Below, one piece after another: positions 1 to 18,041 of a stretch of 64,000 bases of DNA. The stretch lies in assembly GCF_013122565.1 (NCBI RefSeq), contig NZ_CP053258.1. One strand, given 5' to 3'. The DNA comes from Escherichia coli. Lineage in GTDB: Bacteria; Pseudomonadota; Gammaproteobacteria; Enterobacterales; Enterobacteriaceae. Each line of letters begins with the position of its first letter. The first letter of the stretch is position 1. A model generated the notes under the pieces. It had not been told where the DNA came from. It saw nothing but the letters and a program-made list of their open reading frames with translations, and made no database searches. The position numbers were made by a program, and so were the translations under genes.

Positions 1-92
1 GGCAGACAAAAGACAAAGCTACCGCACATAACCACCCACCGGGGTTACGCCATTTATTCACTGTAATTTCCTTTAAACTCAAATAATAAAAA

Positions 93-117
93 CCGGCCTG
101 GCTATTTGCCGGGCCGG
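93..117 (-). terminator. Rho-independent terminator downstream of hcp
   Basis: Minus-strand hairpin CCGGCCCGGCAAATAGCCAGGCCGG followed by TTTTTATT, immediately 3' of the hcp stop. Confidence 0.6.
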
Positions 118-128
118 AAAAGTACTGC

Positions 129-620
129 TTAAATTTCTTTATTGGCCTTGAAGTCGTAGCCTGCGGTGATGGTGCCGCCGCTGCCACCTTGCTGGTTCTG
201 CACCACGTATTCCTGCTTCACGGTGCTGAAAGAGAGTTCGACCATTTCACGGGAGGCAATCTCCCCTTCCTTGCTGCCACTGGGAGATACAACAGCCACA
301 ATAAGGTCAGTGAAGGTATATTTGAGATATTCCAGCGGATTGCCGCCTGCTTTACGCATGGTCAGCACAGCTTTCGGAATGTGTTTGCCGGAGGCGCAGT
401 ATTTGAACAGGTTAGGACTGGCACGATCGATATAGTGGTCAAAGTCCAGGTTGGTCACGGAGACTTTACCGGATCCCAGGCCACTGCCCGCGTGCATGGT
501 GGACTCCTGGTGAATATTCCAGCGCCAGCTCAGCACCTCAATTTCATTTTTATGTTTGTCATCCATTGACTCGCCGTCAATGCCGTCAATTTTCAGAAAA
601 ATGTCATAAGCCATTTTCAT
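129..620 (-). CDS. hcp: T6SS tube protein Hcp (TssD)
   Basis: 163-aa ORF, ATG start; recognisable Hcp1-family sequence (MKMAYDIFLKIDGIDGES...); sits in a T6SS gene cluster. Confidence 0.93.
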   Translation of the reverse strand: MKMAYDIFLKIDGIDGESMDDKHKNEIEVLSWRWNIHQESTMHAGSGLGSGKVSVTNLDFDHYIDRASPNLFKYCASGKHIPKAVLTMRKAGGNPLEYLKYTFTDLIVAVVSPSGSKEGEIASREMVELSFSTVKQEYVVQNQQGGSGGTITAGYDFKANKEI

Positions 621-831
621 TTCCTTATTAAGAATTACTTAAAATAATCTCTGGTTTATCTTCGCATCTGAATTCAGGTAAACCATAGCCGTACAGAACC
701 TCCTCTCCTTAATTTAAGAAGAACAGAAGGCTCTATATTTTTCAGAACTTAAGTACCAGACAGAAAATCATTCACGAAATAAATGTTTATCAATTATATA
801 TAGTTAACTGATAACATATTCTACTGGACTT

Positions 832-1287
832 TCATTCACATATTAAAGATACGGGTTTCTCCCTTGGTGGTTCATCGAAATAAAGAGTCTTACAGGAATG
901 AGTATTTACAGGTACTGGCTGAGATAACCAGACCAGTCCGTAGCTATAAATACAGGAAAACCAGTATCTGTCGCTCTCTTTCGCTGTCGCGCCTTCTGTA
1001 TTCCATATCAACCATGTTTCCTGTTTTATTTTTTTCATCTCTGGCTTCTGATCGCCAAAATTTTCCGGTTTATCCTGTGTGACACTAATATGCGTTAACC
1101 ACTGACGAGGCTCCTGCCGTGGGGAAACTCTCCATTGCGGCTGGACAAATGATTTCAGAACCGCGGTGTAAGGCTCCGTTTCAACAAAAACAGGACAAGT
1201 AACTTCCCATGCCGACACATTTTGTGCATAAAACAAGGCAACACCAGAAAGAAGCAATACAGGAAAGCGCATCATCGTACCTTCCAT
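832..1287 (-). CDS. Exported cysteine-containing protein; candidate T6SS immunity protein
   Basis: 151 aa; N-terminal Sec signal peptide (MMRFPVLLLSGVALFYAQNVSA/WE); 4 Cys in mature part; start ATG overlaps upstream stop (TAATG); located between the putative effector and hcp. Confidence 0.6.
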   Translation of the reverse strand: MEGTMMRFPVLLLSGVALFYAQNVSAWEVTCPVFVETEPYTAVLKSFVQPQWRVSPRQEPRQWLTHISVTQDKPENFGDQKPEMKKIKQETWLIWNTEGATAKESDRYWFSCIYSYGLVWLSQPVPVNTHSCKTLYFDEPPREKPVSLICE

Positions 1288-1670
1288 TATTCAATTACAT
1301 AAAATGCTTCAGCATTACTGCTGGCGCTGGGATACGAACCGTCAGAGTTTGCTCCGCCTTTCGGTCTGAGTTGATGTTTTTCGATTCTGATCTGCGTTCT
1401 CCACTGATCCATAACCCAGATCCCTCGTTTATCCTGCCCCAGATAGAATGCAGCATGATTACCTGAACTCCTGCCAGGCCATCGCCCATTAAAAAAAGTG
1501 GCAATAGCGGTACCTTTTGGAATGGTGGTGTCCCCCCACACTTTCTTACCCGCACGCCATGTTGCTGTGGAGCCAAGATGTGCATACCTTTTAACCAGAG
1601 TTACACACTCACCATCCCCCACTAATGGCTGCCCCTGTAATAAATCCACTGATTCATAAACTCGCGACAT
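1287..1670 (-). CDS. Candidate T6SS amidase effector, papain-like (CHAP/NlpC-P60-type) fold
   Basis: 127 aa, no signal peptide; GECVTLVKRY motif (Cys22), GNHAAFYLG (His72), downstream Asp88/Gln89, spacing typical of CHAP/NlpC-P60 Cys-His-polar triads; SD GAGGG upstream; coupled to the downstream exported protein. Confidence 0.6.
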   Translation of the reverse strand: MSRVYESVDLLQGQPLVGDGECVTLVKRYAHLGSTATWRAGKKVWGDTTIPKGTAIATFFNGRWPGRSSGNHAAFYLGQDKRGIWVMDQWRTQIRIEKHQLRPKGGANSDGSYPSASSNAEAFYVIE

Positions 1671-1709: not shown

Positions 1710-3224
1710 TCAGGCATTACCCTGTTTTACCGACGGCAGTTTTGTGACCAGACGCAGTGATCCTGTTAACCCTTCAAGCTGAAAATGCGGGCGCAGGAAG
1801 AATTTGGCATCGTAATAACCCGGATTACCTTCCACCTCTTCCACCACCACTTCGGCTGCTGCTAGTGGGCGACGAGCTTTGGTTTCCTGTGAGGAGTTCA
1901 CCGGATCGGCATCGACGTAGTTCATGATCCACTCATTGAGCCAGCGCTGCATATCTTCACGCTCTTTGAACGAGCCGATCTTGTCGCGCACGATACATTT
2001 GAGGAAGTGCGCAAACCGTGAACAGGCGAAAAGATATGGCAAACGAGCTGAGAGATTAGCGTTGGCCGTAGCGTCCGGATCGTAATATTCCTGCGGTTTT
2101 TGCAGCGACTGTGCGCCAATAAAGGCGGCATAATCGGAGTTTTTGCGGTGGATCAGCGGGATAAAACCGTTTTTGGCCAGTTCAGCTTCACGGCGATCAG
2201 AGATGGCAATTTCCGTCGGGCATTTCATATCCACGCCGCCGTCATCGGTCGGGAAGGTATGACAGGGTAGATTTTCCACCGCGCCACCAGATTCAACACC
2301 ACGGATCAACGTACACCAACCGTAATGTTTGAAAGAACGGTTGATATTTACACCCATTGCATAGGCGGCATTGCTCCAGACATATTTGCTGTGATCTGCG
2401 CCATCCGCATCTTCTTCAAAATCAAACTCATCTACAGGGTTTGTTTTCGCACCATAAGGCAAACGGGAGAGGAAACGTGGCATCGTCAGGCCAATGTAGC
2501 GAGAATCCTCACTTTTCCGCAGCGAGTTCCACGGTGCGTATTCGAGGTTTTGGGTCACAATTTTGGTCAAATCACGCGGGTTAGCCAGTTCCTGCCAGGA
2601 GTCCATCTGCAACACTGACGGAGAGGCCCCGGCAATAAACGGCGCATGGGCTGAGGCTGCTACTTTGGCAATGGAACCGAGCAGATCCACATCCGGTGGC
2701 GTGTGATCAAAATAATAATCCGCAATAATACAACCGTAAGGTTCTCCACCTAACTGTCCATATTCAGCTTCATACAGCTTTTTGAACATGGGGCTTTGAT
2801 CCCAGGCTATCCCTTTGTAACGTTTCATATTTTTCCGCAATTCATCCTTCGAAAGGTTCATAAAGCGGATTTTTAATTTTTCATCGGTTTCAGTGTTGTA
2901 AACCAAATGTTCCATCCCACGCCAGGAGGACTCCAGTTTCTGAAATTCCGGATGACTCAGGATGAGTTTGATCTGCTCGGTTAATTTGAAATCAATCTGC
3001 TCAATAATCGCAGCAATACTTTTATAAGCGTCGTCACTGACGGTGACGGTATTTGTCAGAGCCTGTTGGGCCAGCGTCTGAACTGCTGCCTCAACAGCCT
3101 TTGCTGCCTGAGGTGTCTTGGGACGGAAGGCTTTATCCAGGAGCGAATCAAATTCAGTGTCCTGATAGGCAGTGGTTTGCGCAGCAGAGAGATCGCCAGT
3201 CGCCAGAAGAGTATCGTTTACCAT
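1710..3224 (-). CDS. tssC: T6SS contractile sheath large subunit TssC (VipB/ImpC)
   Basis: 504-aa ORF with recognisable TssC sequence; immediately downstream of tssB. Confidence 0.95.
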   Translation of the reverse strand: MVNDTLLATGDLSAAQTTAYQDTEFDSLLDKAFRPKTPQAAKAVEAAVQTLAQQALTNTVTVSDDAYKSIAAIIEQIDFKLTEQIKLILSHPEFQKLESSWRGMEHLVYNTETDEKLKIRFMNLSKDELRKNMKRYKGIAWDQSPMFKKLYEAEYGQLGGEPYGCIIADYYFDHTPPDVDLLGSIAKVAASAHAPFIAGASPSVLQMDSWQELANPRDLTKIVTQNLEYAPWNSLRKSEDSRYIGLTMPRFLSRLPYGAKTNPVDEFDFEEDADGADHSKYVWSNAAYAMGVNINRSFKHYGWCTLIRGVESGGAVENLPCHTFPTDDGGVDMKCPTEIAISDRREAELAKNGFIPLIHRKNSDYAAFIGAQSLQKPQEYYDPDATANANLSARLPYLFACSRFAHFLKCIVRDKIGSFKEREDMQRWLNEWIMNYVDADPVNSSQETKARRPLAAAEVVVEEVEGNPGYYDAKFFLRPHFQLEGLTGSLRLVTKLPSVKQGNA

Positions 3225-3248: not shown

Positions 3249-3794
3249 TTAGTCTGCTGTTCCCGTTTCACCTGATAAGACACTTTCCTGTTGAGCGACA
3301 GGTTTTGGCGCACTGGCCAGAGCTTTCAGTAACGTAGGGTCTTGTAATAGTTTGTTGATAAGATTTTCTGCTCCCGCTTTACCATCCATATACGTTTGTA
3401 GGTTGGCAAGCTGAGTACGCGCTTCCAGCAGCTGGTTCAGGGCATCCACCTTACGGGCAATCTGCGCAGGCGAAAAATCGTCCATATTCTCCAGCGTGAT
3501 ATCGACCATTAACTGCCCTTCGCCCGTCAGCGTATTGGGGACAGCAAACGCCACGCGCGGCGCAATGGCTTTCATCCGCTCGTTGAAGTTATCGATATCA
3601 ATATCAAGGAATTTACGATCGGTGACCGGTGGCAGCTCTTCGCGAGGTTTACCGGCCAGATCGGCCAGCACCGCCATGACAAACGGCAGTTCGATTTTTT
3701 TCTCGGAGCCGTAAATCTCAACGTCATACTCAATCTGCACGCGGGGCGCACGGTTGCGGGCAATAAACTTCTGCGCGCTATTGTTGATAGCCAT
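3249..3794 (-). CDS. tssB: T6SS contractile sheath small subunit TssB (VipA/ImpB)
   Basis: 181-aa ORF with recognisable TssB sequence (…RVQIEYDVEIYGSEKKIELPFVMAVLADL…). Confidence 0.95.
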   Translation of the reverse strand: MAINNSAQKFIARNRAPRVQIEYDVEIYGSEKKIELPFVMAVLADLAGKPREELPPVTDRKFLDIDIDNFNERMKAIAPRVAFAVPNTLTGEGQLMVDITLENMDDFSPAQIARKVDALNQLLEARTQLANLQTYMDGKAGAENLINKLLQDPTLLKALASAPKPVAQQESVLSGETGTAD

Positions 3795-4148: not shown

Positions 4149-4352
4149 TTAATGTCCATCAATTGACCAGTGCATGAGATATGCTCTAGCGGGAGGGCGA
4201 TATGTTGCAGAGATACTGACCCTTGCACGCGCATTACCAAGCGCGCGCAAAAAATTATCTACCGATACACGAAAAGTCCCCTGCAAATCATTGGTGGAAG
4301 AACTTCCAGGAAAGCGACTGACCCACAGCGCGCCACTTAATTCTTTTTCCAT
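4149..4352 (-). CDS. Hypothetical small protein (67 aa), uncertain
   Basis: ORF fills the gap between clpV and the 96-aa ORF; GGAG about 9 nt upstream of ATG; stop 2 nt before the next ATG; contains rare Arg codons, no recognisable motif. Confidence 0.25.
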   Translation of the reverse strand: MEKELSGALWVSRFPGSSSTNDLQGTFRVSVDNFLRALGNARARVSISATYRPPARAYLMHWSIDGH

Positions 4353-4364
4353 AAGGATGCTCCA

Positions 4365-6998
4365 TTAATCCGTTTCAAAAATAATCTGTTCATCCTCATC
4401 AACACGAATGCGGATTTGCGTGATGGCCGTTTTCTCTGTCATCGCCTGCAACCAGTAACGGGACAGTTGTGGGAGGATATGTTGTTCGATATAGCCGATG
4501 AGCAAACGAGCGCCGGTTTCGTGCATCGGGCAGCGCGACACAATATGCGTAATCAATTCATCGCCATACACCAGTGAAACGCCATGCTGCTCCGCCATCC
4601 GATCCATCAATCTGCCAAGATGCAGGCGGGCAATAACACCACGCGCGGTCTCATCCAGCGGTAAATAAGGAATAACCGTCACACGCCCCAGGAAAGCCGC
4701 CGGGAAGTGTTTACGTAACTCCGGCATTAACGCCTCTTTTAATCCTGCCGAATCAGGCATCAGCGCCGGATCCTCACAGAGCTGGCTGATAAGTTCCGCT
4801 CCCGCGTTAGTAGTCAACAACAGCGTGGTATTTTTGAAATCGATGTGGACACCTTCGCCATCTTCCATCGCCCCCTTATCAAACACCTGGAAGAACAGCT
4901 CGTGGACGTCGTGATGGGCTTTTTCAATTTCATCCAGCAATACCACGCTCCAGGGATGGCGGCGTACCGCTTCTGTCAACACGCCGCCTTCGCCATAACC
5001 CACGTAGCCGGGCGGTGCGCCTTTCAGCGTGGAAACGGTGTGGGACTCCTGAAACTCGCTCATGTTGATGGTGATCAGGTTCTGCTCACCGCCATAGATA
5101 GCCTCTGCCAGCGCCAGAGCGGTCTCAGTCTTGCCAACACCGGACGGCCCGGCCAGCAAAAAGACGCCCACAGGCTTACGCGGGTCACCTAAACCCGCCC
5201 GCGCGGTCTGGATACGCTCGCCAATCTGCGCCAGCGCGTCCCTCTGCCCGGTAACACGCTGCGCCAGACGGGCGGGCAGTTCCAGGATCTGACTGGCCTC
5301 ATCTTTCACCATGCGTCCGGCGGGAATACCGGTCCAGTCGGAGACAATCTCTGCCACCACGGTTGCACTGACTTCCGGGTACACGACGGGGTTTTCACCC
5401 TGCCAACCTCTTAATGCCGTTTCTGCCTGTTGTAGAGTGATTTCGTCGCGCTCGCCGGGCTCTGCGCCGCGTTGCTCGTGTAAACTGCGAACCAACTCCA
5501 GTTCCTGCTGCCACCGCGCTTCGGTGTCAGAAAGATCGGCATTCAGCGATATAATCCGCGCCGCCAGTACATCGCCCCGCTCCGAGCGGATACCCATTTT
5601 TTCCTGCTTTAATAACAACTCCTGCTCCAGTTCGGCAGCGTTGAGCTGCTGGCGCAGATACTGGACTCTCGCAGGCGGGGTATGCAGCGACAGCGCTACA
5701 CGGGCCGCCGCCGTATCCAGCAGGCTGATGGCCTTATCCGGTAGTTGCCGGGACGGAATGTACCGGTGAGAAAGCTGTACCGCGGCGCGCACGGCCTCAT
5801 CAAGGATCAGGACGTCATGGTGTTTTTCAAGCGTGGTGACTAACCCGCGTACCATCTCAACAGCCGCAACCTCTTCTGGCTCAGCAACCTGCAATACCTG
5901 AAAACGCCGGGTCAGCGCCGGATCCTTTTCGATATGGCGTTTGTACTCGCTCCAGGTAGTTGCGCCGATGGTGCGCAGGGTTCCACGCGCCAGCGCCGGT
6001 TTCAGCAGGTTGGCAGCATCCCCCGTACCGGATGTACCACCAGCGCCCACCAGCGTGTGAACTTCATCAACAAAAAGGATCACCGGCTGCGGCGAGCGCG
6101 CGGCCTCTTCCAACAACGCTTTCAGGCGGGATTCAAATTCACCCTTCATGGACGCCCCTGCCAGCAGCGCTCCAACATCCAGTGACAGCAACCGCACGTT
6201 ACGCAGTGAAGGCGGTACTTCCCCCCCGGCAATCGCCAGCGCGAATCCTTCCACCACTGCCGTTTTCCCGACTCCCGCCTCGCCGGTCAGCAGCGGGTTG
6301 TTCTGGCGACGGCGCAGCAGAATATCCGTCATAGTACGGATCTCGTGTTCGCGACCGGTGACCGGATCGATATTGCCTTCACGGGCCAGCGCAGTCATGT
6401 CCTGGCAGTATTTCGCCAGCGCGGATTTGCTTCCGGTTGATTCGCCGGCAAAGACCTGGCTAGCTTCCCCCGGTACTGCAGAATTTAAATCCGAGCCGTC
6501 ATAAGGCATTTCTGTTAATTCAGGAGATGAAGTGATTAAAGACGGAAGAATATCTAATAGTTCATCTACCGGTAGCTCTGCCAATGGCGCACAAATATTT
6601 TTTAACACCCGACACAATTCTGGCGTGGTTAACCAGGCAAGTAATAACCATCCACTACGAATTTTTTGATCGCCAAAGCGGATACTTGCCAACATCCAGG
6701 CTTTTTCAACAGAAAGATCGATATGATGGGAAAAATCGTTAATTACACTCGCTCCGGCAGGCAATATATTCAATTGCTGAATTAACGCCTTCTCAACATC
6801 AGCAGATGTTATTTGATAATGTCGAAGCACATTGTGAATGTCATTCTCTGGTTGTTGTATTAACTGATGCAACCAATGTGTCAGTTCGACATAAGGATTA
6901 GCGCGTAATTTACAGAACGTTGTCGCAGATTCCAAAGATCTAAACAAAGATTTGGTTAGCTTTCCATATAGTGCACTGCGCGAAACAGGAGTGTCCAT
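4365..6998 (-). CDS. clpV: T6SS AAA+ ATPase ClpV (TssH)
   Basis: 877 aa; two Walker A motifs (GEAGVGKT, GPSGVGKT); ClpB-like architecture without a long middle domain; T6SS context. Confidence 0.95.
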   Translation of the reverse strand: MDTPVSRSALYGKLTKSLFRSLESATTFCKLRANPYVELTHWLHQLIQQPENDIHNVLRHYQITSADVEKALIQQLNILPAGASVINDFSHHIDLSVEKAWMLASIRFGDQKIRSGWLLLAWLTTPELCRVLKNICAPLAELPVDELLDILPSLITSSPELTEMPYDGSDLNSAVPGEASQVFAGESTGSKSALAKYCQDMTALAREGNIDPVTGREHEIRTMTDILLRRRQNNPLLTGEAGVGKTAVVEGFALAIAGGEVPPSLRNVRLLSLDVGALLAGASMKGEFESRLKALLEEAARSPQPVILFVDEVHTLVGAGGTSGTGDAANLLKPALARGTLRTIGATTWSEYKRHIEKDPALTRRFQVLQVAEPEEVAAVEMVRGLVTTLEKHHDVLILDEAVRAAVQLSHRYIPSRQLPDKAISLLDTAAARVALSLHTPPARVQYLRQQLNAAELEQELLLKQEKMGIRSERGDVLAARIISLNADLSDTEARWQQELELVRSLHEQRGAEPGERDEITLQQAETALRGWQGENPVVYPEVSATVVAEIVSDWTGIPAGRMVKDEASQILELPARLAQRVTGQRDALAQIGERIQTARAGLGDPRKPVGVFLLAGPSGVGKTETALALAEAIYGGEQNLITINMSEFQESHTVSTLKGAPPGYVGYGEGGVLTEAVRRHPWSVVLLDEIEKAHHDVHELFFQVFDKGAMEDGEGVHIDFKNTTLLLTTNAGAELISQLCEDPALMPDSAGLKEALMPELRKHFPAAFLGRVTVIPYLPLDETARGVIARLHLGRLMDRMAEQHGVSLVYGDELITHIVSRCPMHETGARLLIGYIEQHILPQLSRYWLQAMTEKTAITQIRIRVDEDEQIIFETD

Positions 6999-7330
6999 CT
7001 GTTACACCTGATGATGTAAGAACATATAAATGATACATAAACATAACTGTACCGATTAAAACTTCTAATTAATAGAATTATCAAAAAGGCAGAATGAAAC
7101 AATGATGCATATCACAGAACCCAATGTAATATAGCAGGTAGTATCGTTTTTATGGTGATATTCAATAGCGTAAGCCAATTTCATACAAGCCATGAATATA
7201 TTAAATTGAAAATCGCCAATATATATTTCTGTAAAAACTTATATTGATAAAGCAAATTGATCAGCATTGCTTATCTAAAAATTTAGAAAACTTATTCTTT
7301 TGAAAGAAACACTCTACACAGTGATACACA
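6999..7330. promoter_or_regulatory. AT-rich divergent control region between clpV operon and the plus-strand T6SS operon
   Basis: 332 bp noncoding, visibly AT-rich relative to the flanking genes; contains a GATC-centred palindrome at 7246-7275. Confidence 0.5.
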
Positions 7331-8245
7331 ATGAAACAAAATATTACGTGGGGACTCCAAAAAAAACAGGCGCACGGGATCGCCGATAACACAATTTACG
7401 CGACTGAAGGAACACAAATTATCTTTACCGTTACCTCTCCCTGGATTCCTGTTTTTGAGGTGAATGATGATGTAAAGATTGCCCTCAGTCTGACCCGCCA
7501 CGAAGAAGCATGGTGGATTATTAATCAGTCTACCGAATATTGCTGTACGGTAAACGACCAGATTGTGGAACCTCATCACCGTATGCGTCTGAATGAAGGC
7601 GATCAGATAGAATGGGGGTTATCTTCATGGTGCCTTGTGCATGGCACCCCATCATCTCCGGACATGAGCGCAGTAAAAACAATATCGCAGACTGCCATCA
7701 CGTCGGAAACAATAACCGAATATCTGGATCTGGATTGGTTCAGGCAGCAGCATCTGACATCACAAAATCCATTCGATATCATTCCTGTTCATGGAGCCTC
7801 CTCCACCGGAGAAGATGCGGAAAAAGAAAATGCCCTGACCCGACTTTATCAGGAATACCGCGAGGCGTTGTTATCTCCCGAAGAAGATCTTCATCGCCAT
7901 GCTGATCCTTTTCCCTTTAACGAAGAGCCCTCCTCGCAGGATCTGGATTCATTGCGTGACCTGGTCACCGAAGCCGATACATTGCAGGATATGGTCACTG
8001 GTGGGTTAAGCATTGACGCTATTCTCAATGTACTGGATGCCACCGGCGAAGATGAAACTATCTGGCCTGTCGAAAAGACTCCCCCTGATATCCTGCATTT
8101 ACTTTCCCCGGAATACGCCCCGGAAACAGCGCATAACACCGTACTGCCAGATCTGACACGCAAAGAGCACCGCATTATCGGCATTGACAGCCATTACCGG
8201 ATAAACCCGGCACAACACGGAGATATCTCTCATGACAAACAATAA
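7331..8245 (+). CDS. T6SS-associated protein of unknown function; possible degenerate FHA-like N-terminal domain
   Basis: 304 aa, ATG start; N-terminal region has FHA-reminiscent elements (SLTRHEEAWWIINQS…RLNEGDQIEWG); C-terminal half acidic/Pro-rich and low complexity; first gene of the operon containing tagJ-tssEFG-tssA. Confidence 0.65.
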   Translation: MKQNITWGLQKKQAHGIADNTIYATEGTQIIFTVTSPWIPVFEVNDDVKIALSLTRHEEAWWIINQSTEYCCTVNDQIVEPHHRMRLNEGDQIEWGLSSWCLVHGTPSSPDMSAVKTISQTAITSETITEYLDLDWFRQQHLTSQNPFDIIPVHGASSTGEDAEKENALTRLYQEYREALLSPEEDLHRHADPFPFNEEPSSQDLDSLRDLVTEADTLQDMVTGGLSIDAILNVLDATGEDETIWPVEKTPPDILHLLSPEYAPETAHNTVLPDLTRKEHRIIGIDSHYRINPAQHGDISHDKQ

Positions 8246-12454: not shown

Positions 12455-13501
12455 ATGGAAATATTCCTGTCTGACCCAATTTCGGCGGAATGTCCCTGCG
12501 GCCCGGATCTGGAGTACGATCCGGAATACCTGCTACTGTTCACTCGCGCCGCACCGCGTGAAGAAGCGCAATACGGCGATTTTGTCAGTACGCCGGAAAC
12601 CATTAACTGGGCGGAGCTTGAGCGGGACGCCCATCGTCTGCTGATGCGCAGCAAAGATATCCGCATTCTGGTTGTCCTGCTGCGCTGCCGTATCCAGCAG
12701 GCCGGCGCACAGGGACTGGCAGACGCGCTCGCGTTGCTGGAAACGTTGTGCGCCACGTACCCGGACGCCATCCATCCGCAACTGCTCGCGACTGAAGATA
12801 TCACCGCCGAAGAGGCGGCAGTGGCACGTAGTAACGCGCTGGCGGCGTTGCTGGACCACGAAGGAGTAATGGCGGATATTCGTGGCATTACACTGTCAAA
12901 TAATGTCGCCATGTGCCTTCAGGTTCGCGATGTGGAGCGTTCGCTGTCAGCATCACGCCCGGCGGATGCGCTGGCACCGGAATCAGTACGCCAGCAACTG
13001 GCCGACCTGGAAGCGCGCGGCACATTGCCGCTGGATGCCTTTCGCCAGGCCGCAGAGACCACTGAACGGCTGCAACGCCATGCGCGTGAAACGCTGAATG
13101 ACCAGGCACCGGACTTCTCCCGTCTGACGCAACTGCTGGCCCTGTTACCGGGAGCAGTGCAGAGCACCACGCCGGAGATCCTGCCACAACCACAGGCTGA
13201 ACAGCCGGAGAATGCCACCATCGATAATACTGAAAAGATGCAGGCAGAGCAGATTGCGCTAGCGGTGCATATCGCGGAGGAAATATCACCGATATCCGGC
13301 GCAGAACCTCGGCAGATCCGCGACCGGAACGATGCGCTGGAACGCCTGCGTGTCATCCGTCGCTGGTTTGAGCACAGCGAACCGAGCAGCCCGACCATTC
13401 CTTTGCTGCTCCAGGCAGAACGCCTGGTCGGAAAACGCTTCTCTGAGGTAATAAATGAAATTCCAGTAGAACTGCTGGAGAAATGGGATGCGCTGGAGTA
13501 A
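12455..13501 (+). CDS. tssA: T6SS protein TssA (ImpA N-terminal domain family, short form)
   Basis: 348 aa; N-terminal ImpA_N signature (DPISAECPCGPDLEYDPEY); SD GAGG upstream. Confidence 0.85.
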   Translation: MEIFLSDPISAECPCGPDLEYDPEYLLLFTRAAPREEAQYGDFVSTPETINWAELERDAHRLLMRSKDIRILVVLLRCRIQQAGAQGLADALALLETLCATYPDAIHPQLLATEDITAEEAAVARSNALAALLDHEGVMADIRGITLSNNVAMCLQVRDVERSLSASRPADALAPESVRQQLADLEARGTLPLDAFRQAAETTERLQRHARETLNDQAPDFSRLTQLLALLPGAVQSTTPEILPQPQAEQPENATIDNTEKMQAEQIALAVHIAEEISPISGAEPRQIRDRNDALERLRVIRRWFEHSEPSSPTIPLLLQAERLVGKRFSEVINEIPVELLEKWDALE

Positions 13502-15103: not shown

Positions 15104-15840
15104 GCCTGTGGTTTACGACATTGCCGGGTGGCTCCAACCGCCTGGCGAATTCGTGGCTTGTTTTTACTCTGTTTCATCTGATTTAGCGTTAAAGGAATAG
15201 TCCGTTTCCGGGCAACAATAAGTTGTAAGCAACCAAGCGCAGGAATATGCGCATTCAATAGTTTTCCTCCGTGTTTGTTCCACGGGAGAACGTGGAAACG
15301 GCTGGCGTGTAGCACTTCAAAATTCAACAAAGAGAGCCAATCCAGTTGCCGCATCAGAGTAAACATCCGGCTATTATAGGGCGAGGTTTTGCGCAATACC
15401 GGTACAAGTTTGCGTAATCCCATTAAACTGATGGGATTGAAGCCACTAATGACCAGCCAGCCATCATCAATCAATACCCGATCGGCCTCACGCAATAAAC
15501 GATGTGGATCGGTGCACCACGGCAATGTATGTGCCAGTAGACAAACATCAACGGATTTATCGGCAAAAGGAAGATGAAGTGGGTCCGCCTGTACCTGGAC
15601 GGGCATTCCTTGCGCAGAAACATTCACTTGATGAGAAACCGCGCACGCTTCGCAATTGATTTCTGCGCTTAAATTGCCAATCTTAAGCAGATGAAAACCA
15701 TACATTTTAGTGAACCACGGGTTGAGCTGGCGCTCCAGCGCCTTGCGATAAAGCTCTCCCCAGGGCAAATCGCCCCAGCAATCAGGAGCCACGACAGTTT
15801 GAGGGACTCTTGCCGGTTTCATCACAACCTTCCGTTTCAC
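15100..15840 (-). CDS. yafS: Putative SAM-dependent methyltransferase YafS
   Basis: 246-aa ORF; position between rnhA and gloB. Confidence 0.85.
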
Positions 15841-15852
15841 ACTGAGAGGTAA

Positions 15853-16611
<759 letters not shown>

Positions 16612-16682
16612 TAAAACTTTCTTGTCATCGGCTCCATTCGCCGTTATGATCGGTCGTCTTTTAAGCAACTATTGACACACAC

Positions 16683-18041
16683 ATGAAGGCAAAAGCGATA
16701 TTACTCGCCTCTGTCCTGCTCGTGGGTTGCCAGAGTACCGGCAACGTTCAACAGCACGCACAGAGCCTTTCTGCAGCTGGTCAAGGGGAAGCAGCAAAGT
16801 TTACAAGTCAGGCACGATGGATGGACGATGGGACGTCTATCGCGCCAGATGGTGACTTGTGGGCTTTCATTGGCGACGAGCTAAAGATGGGAATTCCGGA
16901 AAATGACCGGATTCGCGAACAGAAACAGAAATATTTACGCAATAAGAGCTATCTCCACGATGTAACTTTACGGGCAGAGCCGTATATGTACTGGATAGCC
17001 GGGCAAGTTAAAAAACGTAACATGCCTATGGAACTGGTACTACTACCCATAGTGGAGAGCGCTTTTGATCCTCACGCAACGTCTGGCGCCAATGCCGCAG
17101 GCATCTGGCAGATCATTCCGAGCACGGGGCGCAATTATGGTTTGAAACAGACCCGCAATTATGACGCGCGTCGCGATGTTGTTGCTTCCACAACTGCCGC
17201 GCTGAACATGATGCAGCGTCTGAACAAGATGTTTGACGGCGACTGGCTTCTGACCGTAGCGGCTTATAACAGCGGCGAAGGTCGGGTCATGAAGGCAATT
17301 AAAACGAACAAAGCGCGTGGGAAATCCACGGACTTCTGGTCGTTACCGTTGCCGCAGGAAACGAAGCAGTACGTGCCTAAAATGCTGGCATTGAGTGATA
17401 TTCTCAAAAACAGCAAGCGTTATGGCGTACGTCTGCCAACGACCGATGAAAGCCGTGCTCTGGCGCGTGTGCACCTGAGCAGCCCGGTTGAAATGGCGAA
17501 GGTTGCAGATATGGCGGGGATTTCCGTCAGCAAGCTGAAGACATTCAACGCTGGCGTGAAAGGCTCCACGCTGGGCGCAAGTGGTCCGCAGTACGTGATG
17601 GTGCCAAAGAAGCATGCAGATCAACTGCGTGAATCTCTGGCTTCAGGTGAAATTGCTGCTGTACAGTCGACGCTGGTTGCCGACAATACGCCGCTTAACA
17701 GCCGTGTTTACACCGTACGCTCTGGCGACACGCTTTCAAGTATCGCTTCACGTCTCGGCGTAAGCACCAAAGATTTGCAGCAGTGGAACAAACTGCGCGG
17801 ATCTAAGCTGAAGCCAGGCCAAAGTTTGACGGTTGGTGCAGGCAGTAGCGCACAGCGGTTGGCAAACAACAGCGATAGCATTACGTATCGTGTGCGCAAA
17901 GGCGATTCGCTTTCAAGCATTGCTAAACGCCACGGCGTGAACATCAAAGATGTGATGCGCTGGAACAGCGACACTGCGAATCTGCAACCAGGCGATAAGC
18001 TGACGTTGTTTGTGAAAAACAACAACATGCCAGATTCCTGA
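16683..18041 (+). CDS. mltD: Membrane-bound lytic murein transglycosylase D
   Basis: 452 aa; lipoprotein signal (LLVGC), transglycosylase domain and C-terminal LysM repeats. Confidence 0.95.
   Translation: MKAKAILLASVLLVGCQSTGNVQQHAQSLSAAGQGEAAKFTSQARWMDDGTSIAPDGDLWAFIGDELKMGIPENDRIREQKQKYLRNKSYLHDVTLRAEPYMYWIAGQVKKRNMPMELVLLPIVESAFDPHATSGANAAGIWQIIPSTGRNYGLKQTRNYDARRDVVASTTAALNMMQRLNKMFDGDWLLTVAAYNSGEGRVMKAIKTNKARGKSTDFWSLPLPQETKQYVPKMLALSDILKNSKRYGVRLPTTDESRALARVHLSSPVEMAKVADMAGISVSKLKTFNAGVKGSTLGASGPQYVMVPKKHADQLRESLASGEIAAVQSTLVADNTPLNSRVYTVRSGDTLSSIASRLGVSTKDLQQWNKLRGSKLKPGQSLTVGAGSSAQRLANNSDSITYRVRKGDSLSSIAKRHGVNIKDVMRWNSDTANLQPGDKLTLFVKNNNMPDS

What the first reader, a model, noticed from the sequence alone, without database searches (positions are those of the whole stretch)
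621..831. AT-rich intergenic region upstream of hcp suggests an internal promoter
A 211-bp AT-rich spacer separates the putative immunity gene from hcp, whereas the upstream genes in the operon are tightly packed or overlapping. hcp is followed by a strong terminator (93-117). hcp may therefore be driven by its own promoter in addition to read-through, which would let tube protein levels be set independently of sheath and effector genes.
Basis: inference. Interest (0 to 1): 0.3.

Follow-up and report, generated by a model that had tools for sequence, protein, structure and literature searches.

The report
Conserved regulatory leader upstream of hcp
The AT-rich gap in front of the type VI secretion tube gene hcp is real and holds a conserved ~130-base leader with an RNA hairpin, but whether it also has its own promoter remains unproven; this is ordinary operon fine-tuning, not a surprise.

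Summary
On the minus strand, a 217-bp spacer (615-831; hcp really starts at 614) separates a STY0301-family immunity gene from hcp. Its GC is 0.30 against 0.52 for the window. Every other gap from tssH to the immunity gene is 61 bp or less. The hairpin at 93-117 is a conserved terminator-like element.

The spacer has two parts:
- **Distal 746-831.** It varies with the effector-immunity cassette and carries the only consensus-like sigma-70 matches. These score no better than composition-matched shuffles and are not conserved in position.
- **Proximal 615-745.** This leader travels with hcp in E. coli, Citrobacter, Enterobacter and Salmonella (hcp1, and more divergently hcp2). Between genera it is better conserved than hcp third-codon positions. 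It holds a stem-loop that is stable only on the sense strand (737-692), a conserved 21-nt core and an AU-rich ribosome-binding region.

tssJ starts 67 bp after hcp, so the terminator must be leaky.

Best reading: an hcp expression module of leader, gene and attenuator. An H-NS-silenced internal promoter is plausible, because the Salmonella orthologue has been used as "P_hcp1", but it is not shown. A similar idea was tested and refuted in Pseudomonas putida.

The parts
615..831 (-). Whole spacer between the immunity gene stop and the hcp start (217 bp, GC 0.30)
746..831 (-). Distal, variable AT-rich segment (GC 0.26). It changes with the effector-immunity cassette and is not alignable between lineages.
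   Evidence: Pairwise identity is 0.51-0.65, the level of unrelated sequence.
818..846 (-). Best sigma-70-like match: TTAATA-17 nt-TAGAAT (9 of 12). It overlaps the immunity gene stop. The predicted start is near 811.
   Evidence: It scores no better than 15.5% of shuffles and is present only with this cassette.
793..798 (-). Perfect -10 hexamer TATAAT with a poor -35. The predicted start is near 786.
   Evidence: Position read.
615..745 (-). Conserved hcp leader, found upstream of hcp in E. coli, Escherichia sp., Citrobacter, Enterobacter and Salmonella
   Evidence: Alignments. Identity between genera is 0.70-0.82 against 0.62-0.69 at hcp third-codon positions. The core motif is absent from all 63 non-enterobacterial hcp loci scanned, most of them betaproteobacterial.
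692..737 (-). Stem-loop with a pyrimidine 5' arm, an AU-rich loop and a purine 3' arm (AAGGAGAGGAGG). It is stable only on the sense strand.
   Evidence: -22.7 kcal/mol, z -4.9. Sense -22.7 against antisense -6.6, with 4 G-U pairs. 91% of cells are paired across 18 variants.
675..695 (-). Most conserved core of the leader, TGTACGGCTATGGTTTACCTG
   Evidence: It was used as the search pattern.
639..686 (-). Possible mini upstream ORF (MVYLNSDAKINQRLF). Only the first four codons, M-[IV]-Y-L, are conserved.
   Evidence: Read. The ORF stops after codon 4 in Salmonella hcp1 and in the E. coli tai4-hcp type. The ATG is lost in Salmonella hcp2.
615..649 (-). AU-rich translation initiation region with Shine-Dalgarno AGGA (625-622), 7 nt before the ATG at 614
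   Evidence: This is the part that is also conserved in the roughly 110 E. coli genomes with the tai4-hcp arrangement.
129..614 (-). hcp (161 aa), T6SS tube protein, 94% identical to Salmonella SPI-6 Hcp
81..117 (-). Intrinsic-terminator-like hairpin (117-93) plus U-run (92-81). Inferred to be a leaky attenuator and a 3' stabiliser.
1..61 (-). 5' end of tssJ (GTG at 61-59, Shine-Dalgarno AAGGA upstream). It runs off the window.
832..1670 (-). Variable effector-immunity cassette (BPSL0067 family and STY0301 family). In cassette-free strains the sequences diverge right after the tssC stop.
6999..7330 (.). Divergent AT-rich region between tssH and tagK (GC 0.28). It is the likely main promoter region of the cluster.
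   Evidence: One search covers the Salmonella counterpart.

Best explanation
The spacer is the 5' control region of a self-contained hcp expression module, not simply a promoter.

Transcripts from upstream run into hcp, because nothing terminator-like lies between the immunity gene and hcp. These come from the tssH-proximal AT-rich promoter region, and possibly also from a weak, H-NS-silenced start in the variable AT-rich segment 746-831.

Every such transcript then carries the conserved leader (745-615):
- a sense-strand stem-loop (737-692);
- a conserved single-stranded core (695-675);
- an AU-rich region with a well-spaced Shine-Dalgarno.

Behind hcp, a conserved hairpin plus U-run (117-81) stops part of the transcription and leaves a protective 3' hairpin. 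The rest reads through into tssJKL.

Together these elements would give more, and longer-lived, hcp message and more Hcp per message than for the flanking genes.

Shown: the anatomy, the conservation, the strand asymmetry of the hairpin, and the fact that tssJ has no room for its own promoter.

Inferred: the effects on mRNA stability and translation, the leakiness of the terminator, and any promoter activity.

My estimates: the leader is a functional cis element, 0.8. The hairpin acts at the RNA level, 0.6. An internal promoter is active under some condition, about 0.5.
For: - **Bipartite structure.** The distal part is unrelated between lineages. The proximal 130 nt is conserved.
- **Constraint.** Leader identity between genera is 0.70-0.82. 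Third-codon-position identity in the adjacent hcp is 0.62-0.69.
- **The leader travels with hcp.** It is present whatever lies upstream: no cassette (235-bp gap after tssC), other cassettes, tai4, and both Salmonella hcp copies.
- **Hairpin.** It folds in 7 of the 8 lineage representatives tested, at -13 to -22.7 kcal/mol with z -2 to -4.9. It is much weaker on the antisense strand because it uses 1-6 G-U pairs. 91% of cells are paired, against 41-77% when the partner is slid.
- **3' hairpin and U-run.** They are conserved with compensating changes. tssJ begins 67 bp after hcp.
- **AT-rich islands.** The spacer is one of only three in 64 kb, and another is the divergent promoter region.
- **Best sigma-70 score.** The spacer's score (11.4) is the highest on the sense strand from tssH to hcp. 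It equals the best hit in the divergent region.
- **Literature.** The Salmonella fragment from 136 bp inside the immunity gene to the hcp1 ATG is used as P_hcp1::lacZ and responds to H-NS and c-di-GMP. In EHEC, a hairpin just after hcp3 stabilises hcp3 mRNA and blocks downstream expression.
Against: - No promoter-like site is conserved in position.
- The best match in the window is no better than 15.5% of shuffles.
- No sigma-54 site, Fur box or high-affinity H-NS motif lies in the spacer.
- The RNAalifold consensus is weak (-3.3 kcal/mol). Covariation is modest, because pyrimidine and purine arms pair in almost any register (shuffles reach 89.5% paired).
- The hairpin is weak in the commonest E. 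coli variant, tai4-hcp (-6.6, z -0.5).
- SPI-6 genes are silent in all published Salmonella transcriptome conditions, so no start site is on record.
- The Salmonella reporter was chromosomally integrated and not insulated from read-through.
- In P. putida the analogous spacer had no promoter activity.
Confidence: 0.4

Rival explanations
1. Pure internal promoter. The spacer exists to house a sigma-70 promoter that drives hcp independently. The conserved block is its promoter, operator and 5' UTR.
For: - The DNA is AT-rich, with TTAATA-17-TAGAAT and a perfect TATAAT.
- The Salmonella orthologue is cloned as P_hcp1.
- Internal promoters are known in other T6SS clusters, for example EAEC sci1, whose paper is listed in the references seen.
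- A weak nAAAAT/ATAyAG motif sits just 5' of the hairpin in all lineages. This position would put a start at the foot of the hairpin.
Against: - The consensus-like sites lie in the non-conserved part and are not above chance.
- The conserved block has no good -35/-10 pair at a fixed position.
- The TTTAYC...GATAAA pair changes spacing from 16-18 nt to 8 nt in the E. coli tai4-hcp variant (read).
- The hairpin's reliance on G-U pairs points to RNA, not DNA.
- The precedent in P. putida was negative.
Confidence: 0.2
2. No promoter at all. The spacer is an intercistronic leader in one long tssH-to-tssM transcript. Hcp excess comes only from segmental mRNA stability (5' stem-loop, 3' hairpin, perhaps RNase processing) and efficient translation.
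For: - No terminator lies upstream of hcp.
- There is a sense-specific hairpin and a conserved terminator.
- This outcome was demonstrated in P. putida K1-T6SS, and stabilisation by a 3' hairpin in EHEC hcp3.
- The promoter matches are at chance level.
Against: - The Salmonella P_hcp1, P_tae4 and P_vgrG fusions all show regulated activity, although they were not insulated.
- AT-rich, H-NS-type DNA is promoter-prone.
- The distal segment stays long and AT-rich even in strains with no cassette (235 bp). A pure leader would not need this.
Confidence: 0.25
3. The leader works through a tiny upstream ORF (M-[IV]-Y-L...). Its translation remodels the leader and gates hcp translation or Rho access.
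For: - The ATG and the next three codons are conserved, and the changes are synonymous or conservative: GTT/ATT, TAC/TAT, CTG/CTA/TTG.
- Two lineages place a stop right after codon 4.
- A purine-rich Shine-Dalgarno-like tract sits at a fixed 12 nt upstream.
Against: - Twelve conserved bases cannot separate coding from non-coding constraint.
- The 12-nt spacing is too long for a good Shine-Dalgarno, and that tract is buried in the hairpin.
- The ATG is ATA in Salmonella hcp2.
- Nothing after codon 4 is conserved.
Confidence: 0.07
4. The spacer has no function of its own. It is a junction scar and AT-rich tail left by the exchange of horizontally acquired effector-immunity cassettes.
For: - The distal 86 bp varies with the cassette.
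- The cassette itself is rare: 4 of 5426 E. coli genomes.
- A palindrome at the junction (CCGGTA-N6-TACCGG) is present in some variants, shortened in Salmonella and decayed in the window.
Against: - The proximal 130 nt is better conserved than synonymous sites across four genera and is kept with every cassette type.
- The hairpin and the ribosome-binding region are maintained.
Confidence: 0.08

Closest known systems
Upstream region of Salmonella Typhimurium SPI-6 hcp1 (sciK, STM0276), used as 'P_hcp1' (Li et al. 2023, PMC10657408)
   Same: - It is the orthologous locus. The gene order is the same: tssC, 128-aa effector, 148-aa immunity gene, spacer (251 bp), hcp.
- The leader is 77% identical over 130 nt, with the same hairpin and ribosome-binding region.
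- It is AT-rich and H-NS-repressed.
   Different: - Salmonella usually has a second module: a duplicated terminator with a tssJ 5' fragment, then tae4-tai4 and hcp2 with a diverged leader.
- The distal part of the spacer is unrelated.
- No start site has been published to my knowledge. The key paper, Brunet et al. 2015, could not be read.
tagP1-hcp1 spacer of the Pseudomonas putida K1-T6SS (PMC9993120)
   Same: An unusually long gap (119 bp) lies before hcp inside a tightly packed T6SS operon. hcp1 mRNA exceeds tssB1 mRNA, and an internal promoter was proposed.
   Different: Sequence and T6SS lineage are unrelated. There the fusion had no activity, and the authors concluded higher transcript stability. 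Nothing has been tested for the present locus.
EHEC hcp3-vgrG3 intergenic region h3R, region I (PMC13141884)
   Same: A terminator hairpin just after the hcp stop codon stabilises hcp mRNA and limits expression of the next gene. This is the same logic as 117-81 here.
   Different: It belongs to a different T6SS cluster with a different downstream gene (vgrG3, which has its own promoter region). Here tssJ follows after 67 bp with no room for a promoter, so read-through is required.
5' stem-loop stabilisers and segmental mRNA stability in operons, such as the ompA 5' UTR and papB-papA (from general knowledge, not tested here)
   Same: A long leader has a stable hairpin near its 5' end. A major structural subunit gene is bracketed by hairpins, so it is made in excess of its operon neighbours.
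   Different: No sequence similarity. It is not known whether the hairpin sits at a 5' end, which the ompA-type mechanism requires.

Membership tests
Sigma-70 promoter | -35 and -10 hexamers 16-18 nt apart that match the consensus better than the composition predicts | tested here: inconclusive
   TTAATA-17-TAGAAT (9 of 12) at 846-818 and TATAAT at 798-793. The maximum score of 11.4 is reached by 15.5% of dinucleotide shuffles.
Sigma-70 promoter | The promoter elements are conserved in position among orthologues | tested here: not met
   Nine orthologous upstream regions were scanned. The top hits fall at different distances from the ATG.
Sigma-70 promoter | A mapped primary 5' end, or activity in an insulated reporter | not testable with these tools
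   SPI-6 is silent in the published Salmonella transcriptomes. The Salmonella P_hcp1::lacZ was integrated with a suicide vector.
Sigma-54 promoter (common upstream of hcp in Vibrio and Pseudomonas) | GG-N10-GC (TGGCAC-N5-TTGC) | tested here: not met
   The only hit is TGGTACTTAAGTTCT (744-758), with three mismatches including the -12 GC. Counts across the window are at chance.
Fur-repressed promoter | 19-bp Fur box | tested here: not met
   No match with 3 or fewer mismatches anywhere in the window.
H-NS-silenced region | Markedly AT-rich DNA relative to its surroundings | tested here: met
   GC 0.30 against 0.518. It is one of three such islands in 64 kb.
H-NS-silenced region | High-affinity nucleation motif TCGATAAATT | tested here: not met
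   No match with 2 or fewer mismatches in 615-831.
H-NS-silenced region | H-NS occupancy and derepression in an hns mutant | not testable with these tools
   Reported for Salmonella SPI-6 as a whole: eight bound regions, and hcp1 mRNA up in the hns deletion. There is nothing for this strain.
Intrinsic (Rho-independent) terminator or attenuator (element at 117-81) | A GC-rich stem-loop directly followed by a U-run | tested here: met
   -17.7 kcal/mol hairpin followed by UUUUUAUUAUUU.
Intrinsic (Rho-independent) terminator or attenuator (element at 117-81) | The structure is conserved through compensating changes | tested here: met
   The C.A mismatch in the window is A-U in Escherichia sp. E1V33 and C-G in E69. 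Enterobacter and Salmonella have different inner stems and the same fold.
Intrinsic (Rho-independent) terminator or attenuator (element at 117-81) | Partial termination in vivo | not testable with these tools
   Inferred, because tssJ starts 67 bp after hcp and has no room for a promoter.
mRNA-stabilising 5' or intercistronic stem-loop | A stable hairpin on the transcribed strand, conserved among relatives | tested here: met
   7 of 8 lineage representatives fold it. Sense is far more stable than antisense. 91% of cells are paired. Covariation is only modest.
mRNA-stabilising 5' or intercistronic stem-loop | The hairpin lies at or within a few nt of an RNA 5' end and lengthens the half-life | not testable with these tools
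   This needs 5'-end mapping and rifampicin chase experiments.
Described RNA family (Rfam 15) | A match at or above a family's gathering score | tested here: not met
   The best hits in 1-1500 score 15-22 bits against gathering scores of 40-75. All are implausible families.
Leader-peptide (uORF) control | A conserved start codon, a usable Shine-Dalgarno and a conserved peptide | tested here: inconclusive
   M-[IV]-Y-L is conserved in two of three leader types and lost in Salmonella hcp2. The Shine-Dalgarno-like tract is 12 nt away and base-paired.

The most novel reading that the evidence does not exclude
The 130-nt block could be a so far undescribed cis-acting RNA element, an 'hcp leader', of SPI-6-type T6SS clusters in Enterobacteriaceae. 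Its sense-strand pyrimidine/purine stem-loop, perhaps together with the four-codon mini-ORF, would set Hcp synthesis after transcription. It could act through mRNA half-life, RNase processing or access to the ribosome-binding site. The module would have been copied along with hcp when Salmonella duplicated the gene.
Probability: 0.2. Interest if true: 0.5.

Novelty: new member of a known kind. Interest (0 to 1): 0.3.

Why it matters
Each firing expels Hcp, whereas the sheath is recycled. A T6SS therefore needs more tube protein than its operon neighbours. How enteric SPI-6-type systems achieve this is not established.

If the leader and attenuator work as proposed, they explain the uncoupling without requiring a dedicated promoter. 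They also give defined targets for switching on these normally silent systems in the laboratory: the hairpin at 692-737 and the terminator at 81-117.

There is a practical caution too. A long AT-rich gap in an H-NS-silenced island produces promoter-like matches by composition alone.

Tried and rejected
- **Sigma-54 promoter.** Rejected: the -12 GC is missing.
- **Fur box.** None found.
- **H-NS high-affinity motif.** None in the spacer.
- **Known RNA family.** None.
- **Hidden protein gene.** No ORF of 20 aa or more lies inside the spacer on either strand.
- **TTTAYC-16 nt-GATAAA inside the leader as the promoter.** Rejected as a general solution. The spacing collapses to 8 nt in the E. coli tai4-hcp variant, and a start there would leave the sense-specific hairpin untranscribed.
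- **CCGGTA-N6-TACCGG palindrome as an operator or hairpin.** It is not conserved. It is shortened to CGGTACCG in Salmonella and decayed in the window.
- **Hairpin as a terminator for antisense transcription or as a DNA cruciform.** Unlikely, because the antisense strand folds far less well.
- **CsrA/RsmA sites.** GGA motifs lie in the stem rather than the loop, and are absent from the purine arm in Citrobacter and Salmonella hcp2 (read).
- **Start-site data from Salmonella transcriptomes.** SPI-6 is not expressed in any condition. The Cappable-seq and ChIP papers gave no coordinates.
- **Papers that could not be read.** Brunet et al. 2015 and Wang et al. 2019 are not held.
- **Li et al. reporter values.** The Miller-unit source data could not be found.

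Full report
**1. What is at the locus**

The first 7 kb of the window carry part of a type VI secretion cluster on the minus strand:
- tssH/clpV (4365-6998) and two small ORFs;
- tssB (3249-3794) and tssC (1710-3224);
- a BPSL0067-family protein (1287-1670) and a STY0301-family protein (832-1287);
- hcp, and the first 61 bases of tssJ.

The closest E. coli chromosomes are 98.6% identical over 4.4 kb and are annotated in the same way. Hcp is 94% identical to Salmonella SPI-6 Hcp. The gene order equals that of SPI-6, and of Salmonella contig L074 in particular.

**2. Checking the observation**

The ORF lister starts hcp at 620. Three things put the start at 614: the AGGA at 625-622 lies 7 nt before the second ATG, all orthologues begin MAYDIFLK or MSYDIFLK, and RefSeq starts the gene there. 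The spacer is therefore 615-831, 217 bp.

- The other gaps from tssH to the immunity gene are 12, 2, 61, 24, 39 and -1 bp.
- GC is 0.30 against 0.518 for the window.
- Only 0.5% of 211-nt windows are as AT-rich. They fall in three places: this spacer, the divergent tssH/tagK region (6992-7398) and 16327-16630.

The hairpin at 93-117 is real. It has -17.7 kcal/mol, is followed by UUUUUAUUAUUU, and gives z -4.0.

One correction matters: tssJ (GTG at 61) follows hcp after 67 bp on the same strand.

**3. The spacer has two parts**

I aligned the window with these relatives:
- E. coli strains that carry another cassette or none;
- Escherichia sp. E1V33, Citrobacter amalonaticus and Enterobacter sp. 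ENT03;
- Salmonella hcp1 and hcp2;
- the common E. coli tae4-tai4-hcp arrangement.

The distal part (746-831) is unrelated between lineages. The proximal ~130 nt (615-745) is conserved in all of them.

- Between genera the leader is 0.70-0.82 identical. Third-codon positions of the adjacent hcp are 0.62-0.69 identical. The distal part scores 0.51-0.65, the level of unrelated sequence.
- A strain without any effector-immunity pair still has 235 bp between tssC and hcp. The long gap is therefore not a by-product of the cassette.
- More distant relatives lack the leader. Those with Hcp at 73-78% identity have gaps of 63-75 bp.
- The core motif is absent from all 63 non-enterobacterial hcp loci scanned, most of them betaproteobacterial. 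It is present in 4 of 4 enterobacterial loci.
- A pattern scan of metagenome contigs found 14 more copies. Together with the other loci this gave 19 distinct variants in roughly seven or eight lineages.

**4. Anatomy of the leader (minus strand)**

- **Stem-loop, 737-692.** It has a pyrimidine 5' arm, an AU-rich loop and a purine 3' arm (AAGGAGAGGAGG). Its energy is -22.7 kcal/mol with z -4.9.
- **The same architecture elsewhere.** It folds in E69, Citrobacter, Enterobacter, a Citrobacter-like metagenome variant, Salmonella hcp1 and hcp2, at -13 to -17 kcal/mol with z -2 to -3. It is weak in the E. coli tai4-hcp variant (-6.6, z -0.5).
- **Strand asymmetry.** The fold uses 1-6 G-U pairs and is much weaker on the other strand, for example -22.7 against -6.6 and -17.7 against -1.1. 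This favours a structure in the hcp-sense RNA over a DNA palindrome or an antisense terminator.
- **Pair counts.** On 18 variants, 91% of cells are paired, against 41-77% when the partner is slid. Three pairs change on both sides.
- **Limits of the structural evidence.** Column shuffles also reach 89.5% paired, because the arms are homopyrimidine and homopurine. The RNAalifold consensus is weak. Covariation support is therefore modest.
- **Downstream elements.** These are the most conserved 21-mer (695-675), a GATAAA motif (660-655), and an AU-rich stretch with the Shine-Dalgarno (649-615).
- **Mini-ORF.** The 21-mer contains an ATG (686-684) opening a short ORF. Only M-[IV]-Y-L is conserved, with synonymous or conservative changes. 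Two lineages stop right after codon 4. In Salmonella hcp2 the ATG is ATA. This is too little to call.
- **Negative searches.** No Rfam family matches, and no ORF of 20 aa or more is present.

**5. Is there a promoter?**

- The consensus scan finds one sigma-70-like site in the spacer: TTAATA-17-TAGAAT at 846-818, overlapping the immunity gene stop.
- A weight-matrix scan adds a perfect TATAAT at 798-793 with a poor -35.
- Both lie in the non-conserved part.
- The best score (11.4) is reached by 15.5% of dinucleotide shuffles of the spacer. It is nevertheless the highest on the sense strand from tssH to hcp, and it equals the best minus-strand hit in the divergent region.
- In other words, the composition alone makes the region promoter-prone, and nothing more specific can be shown.
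- Across nine orthologous upstream regions, no promoter-like site keeps its position.
- Sigma-54, Fur and the H-NS high-affinity motif are absent.
- No terminator-like hairpin lies between the immunity gene and hcp, so read-through into hcp is expected.

**6. Literature**

- Li et al. 2023 amplified 'promoter regions' of clpV, hcp1, tae4 and vgrG of S. Typhimurium for lacZ fusions. They reported activity that rises with c-di-GMP, and mRNA that rises in an hns mutant.
- Their hcp1 fragment runs from 136 bp inside the immunity gene to just past the hcp1 ATG, which is the orthologue of this spacer. The vector is a suicide plasmid that integrates into the chromosome, so read-through is not excluded.
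- SPI-6 genes are not expressed in any condition of the Salmonella transcriptome compendium. No start site is therefore on record.
- In P. putida K1-T6SS, a 119-bp gap before hcp1 and excess hcp1 mRNA led to the same hypothesis. A plasmid fusion had no activity, and the authors concluded higher transcript stability.
- In EHEC, a hairpin just after hcp3 stabilises hcp3 mRNA and blocks vgrG3.
- Brunet et al. 2015, the main paper on SPI-6 promoters, could not be read.

**7. The element behind hcp**

The hairpin and U-run at 117-81 are conserved in E. coli, Escherichia sp., Citrobacter, Enterobacter and Salmonella. The stem changes are compensated. The C.A mismatch of the window is A-U or C-G elsewhere, and the inner stems differ in Enterobacter and Salmonella.

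The tssJ Shine-Dalgarno and its GTG start follow within about 20 nt of the U-run, so there is no room for a promoter. The genes for the membrane complex and baseplate can then only be reached by read-through. The element must therefore be a leaky terminator, which is an inference.

In Salmonella, the sequence after hcp1 repeats the sequence after hcp2, including the first bases of tssJ. This shows that hcp and its terminator were duplicated together.

**8. Most likely mechanism**

hcp sits in a module of leader, gene and attenuator.
- Transcripts enter from upstream, and perhaps from a weak H-NS-silenced start in 746-831.
- They carry a 5' stem-loop and a strong translation initiation region.
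- Part of them end at the 3' hairpin.

This would raise hcp message and Hcp output relative to both neighbours.

My estimates are: functional leader 0.8, RNA-level role of the hairpin 0.6, active internal promoter about 0.5. I give the module reading as a whole 0.4. The main rival is the same module with no promoter at all (0.25). A pure promoter reading (0.2), a uORF switch (0.07) and a junction scar (0.08) follow.

**9. Verdict**

The region is the orthologue of what Salmonella workers already call the hcp1 promoter region. The system is therefore a new member of a known kind. The conserved sense-strand hairpin and the leaky terminator are useful details, but they would not surprise a specialist. 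Interest is 0.3.

Noticed in passing
window 612-620 (minus strand): The mechanical ORF starts hcp at the ATG at 620 (MKMAYD...). The Shine-Dalgarno spacing, the orthologues and RefSeq all point to the ATG at 614 (MAYD...). The finding's lower boundary (621) is therefore 6 bp off.
   Followed up: yes
window 832-1670; loci L002, L003, L076: The effector-immunity pair between tssC and hcp is a swappable cassette. This version is in only 4 of 5426 complete E. coli genomes. Some strains have none, others a related pair, and about 110 carry tae4-tai4. Sequences diverge directly after the tssC stop codon.
   Followed up: partly
L071 4481-4600 and 6266-6375 (Salmonella): The sequence after hcp1 is a copy of the sequence after hcp2: the terminator hairpin plus the first ~45 bases of tssJ. 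The two hcp genes are 90% identical at third-codon positions, but their leaders are only 64% identical. This points to a tandem duplication of hcp with its terminator, with different leaders.
   Followed up: partly
window 741-758 (minus strand); L002, L003, L007: A perfect palindrome, CCGGTA-N6-TACCGG, sits at the junction between the variable and conserved parts in several E. coli and Citrobacter variants. It is shortened to CGGTACCG in Salmonella and decayed in the window (CTGGTACTTAAGTTCTGA). Its function is unknown. It could be a recombination junction.
   Followed up: partly
window 819-836 and 13454-13471: An 18-nt sequence at the end of the immunity gene (AATGAAAGTCCAGTAGAA, sense strand) recurs with one mismatch near the 3' end of the last large ORF of the plus-strand arm (12455-13501; untyped, probably tssA by gene order). 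About 0.15 such matches are expected by chance in 13.6 kb.
   Followed up: no
window 4149-4352 (minus strand): A 67-aa ORF lies between tssH and tssB. In E. coli 06-00048 the corresponding position is annotated as a frameshifted peptidoglycan-binding-domain gene of about 188 codons. The window copy looks like a truncated remnant.
   Followed up: no
window 15522-15536 (minus strand): A perfect match to the sigma-54 consensus, TGGCAC-N5-TTGC (TGGCACATACATTGC). It lies outside the T6SS cluster, inside or upstream of minus-strand ORFs. About 0.1 such matches are expected by chance.
   Followed up: no
window 16327-16630: This is the third stretch in the window with GC of 0.30 or less. It overlaps the 3' part of ORF 15856-16611 and the gap before ORF 16683-18041. 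It was not examined.
   Followed up: no
L001 1-1184; L076 1-125: In the closest E. coli relatives, tssL downstream of tssK is annotated as a pseudogene (internal stop or frameshift). Some of these clusters may therefore be non-functional. The window ends before tssL.
   Followed up: no
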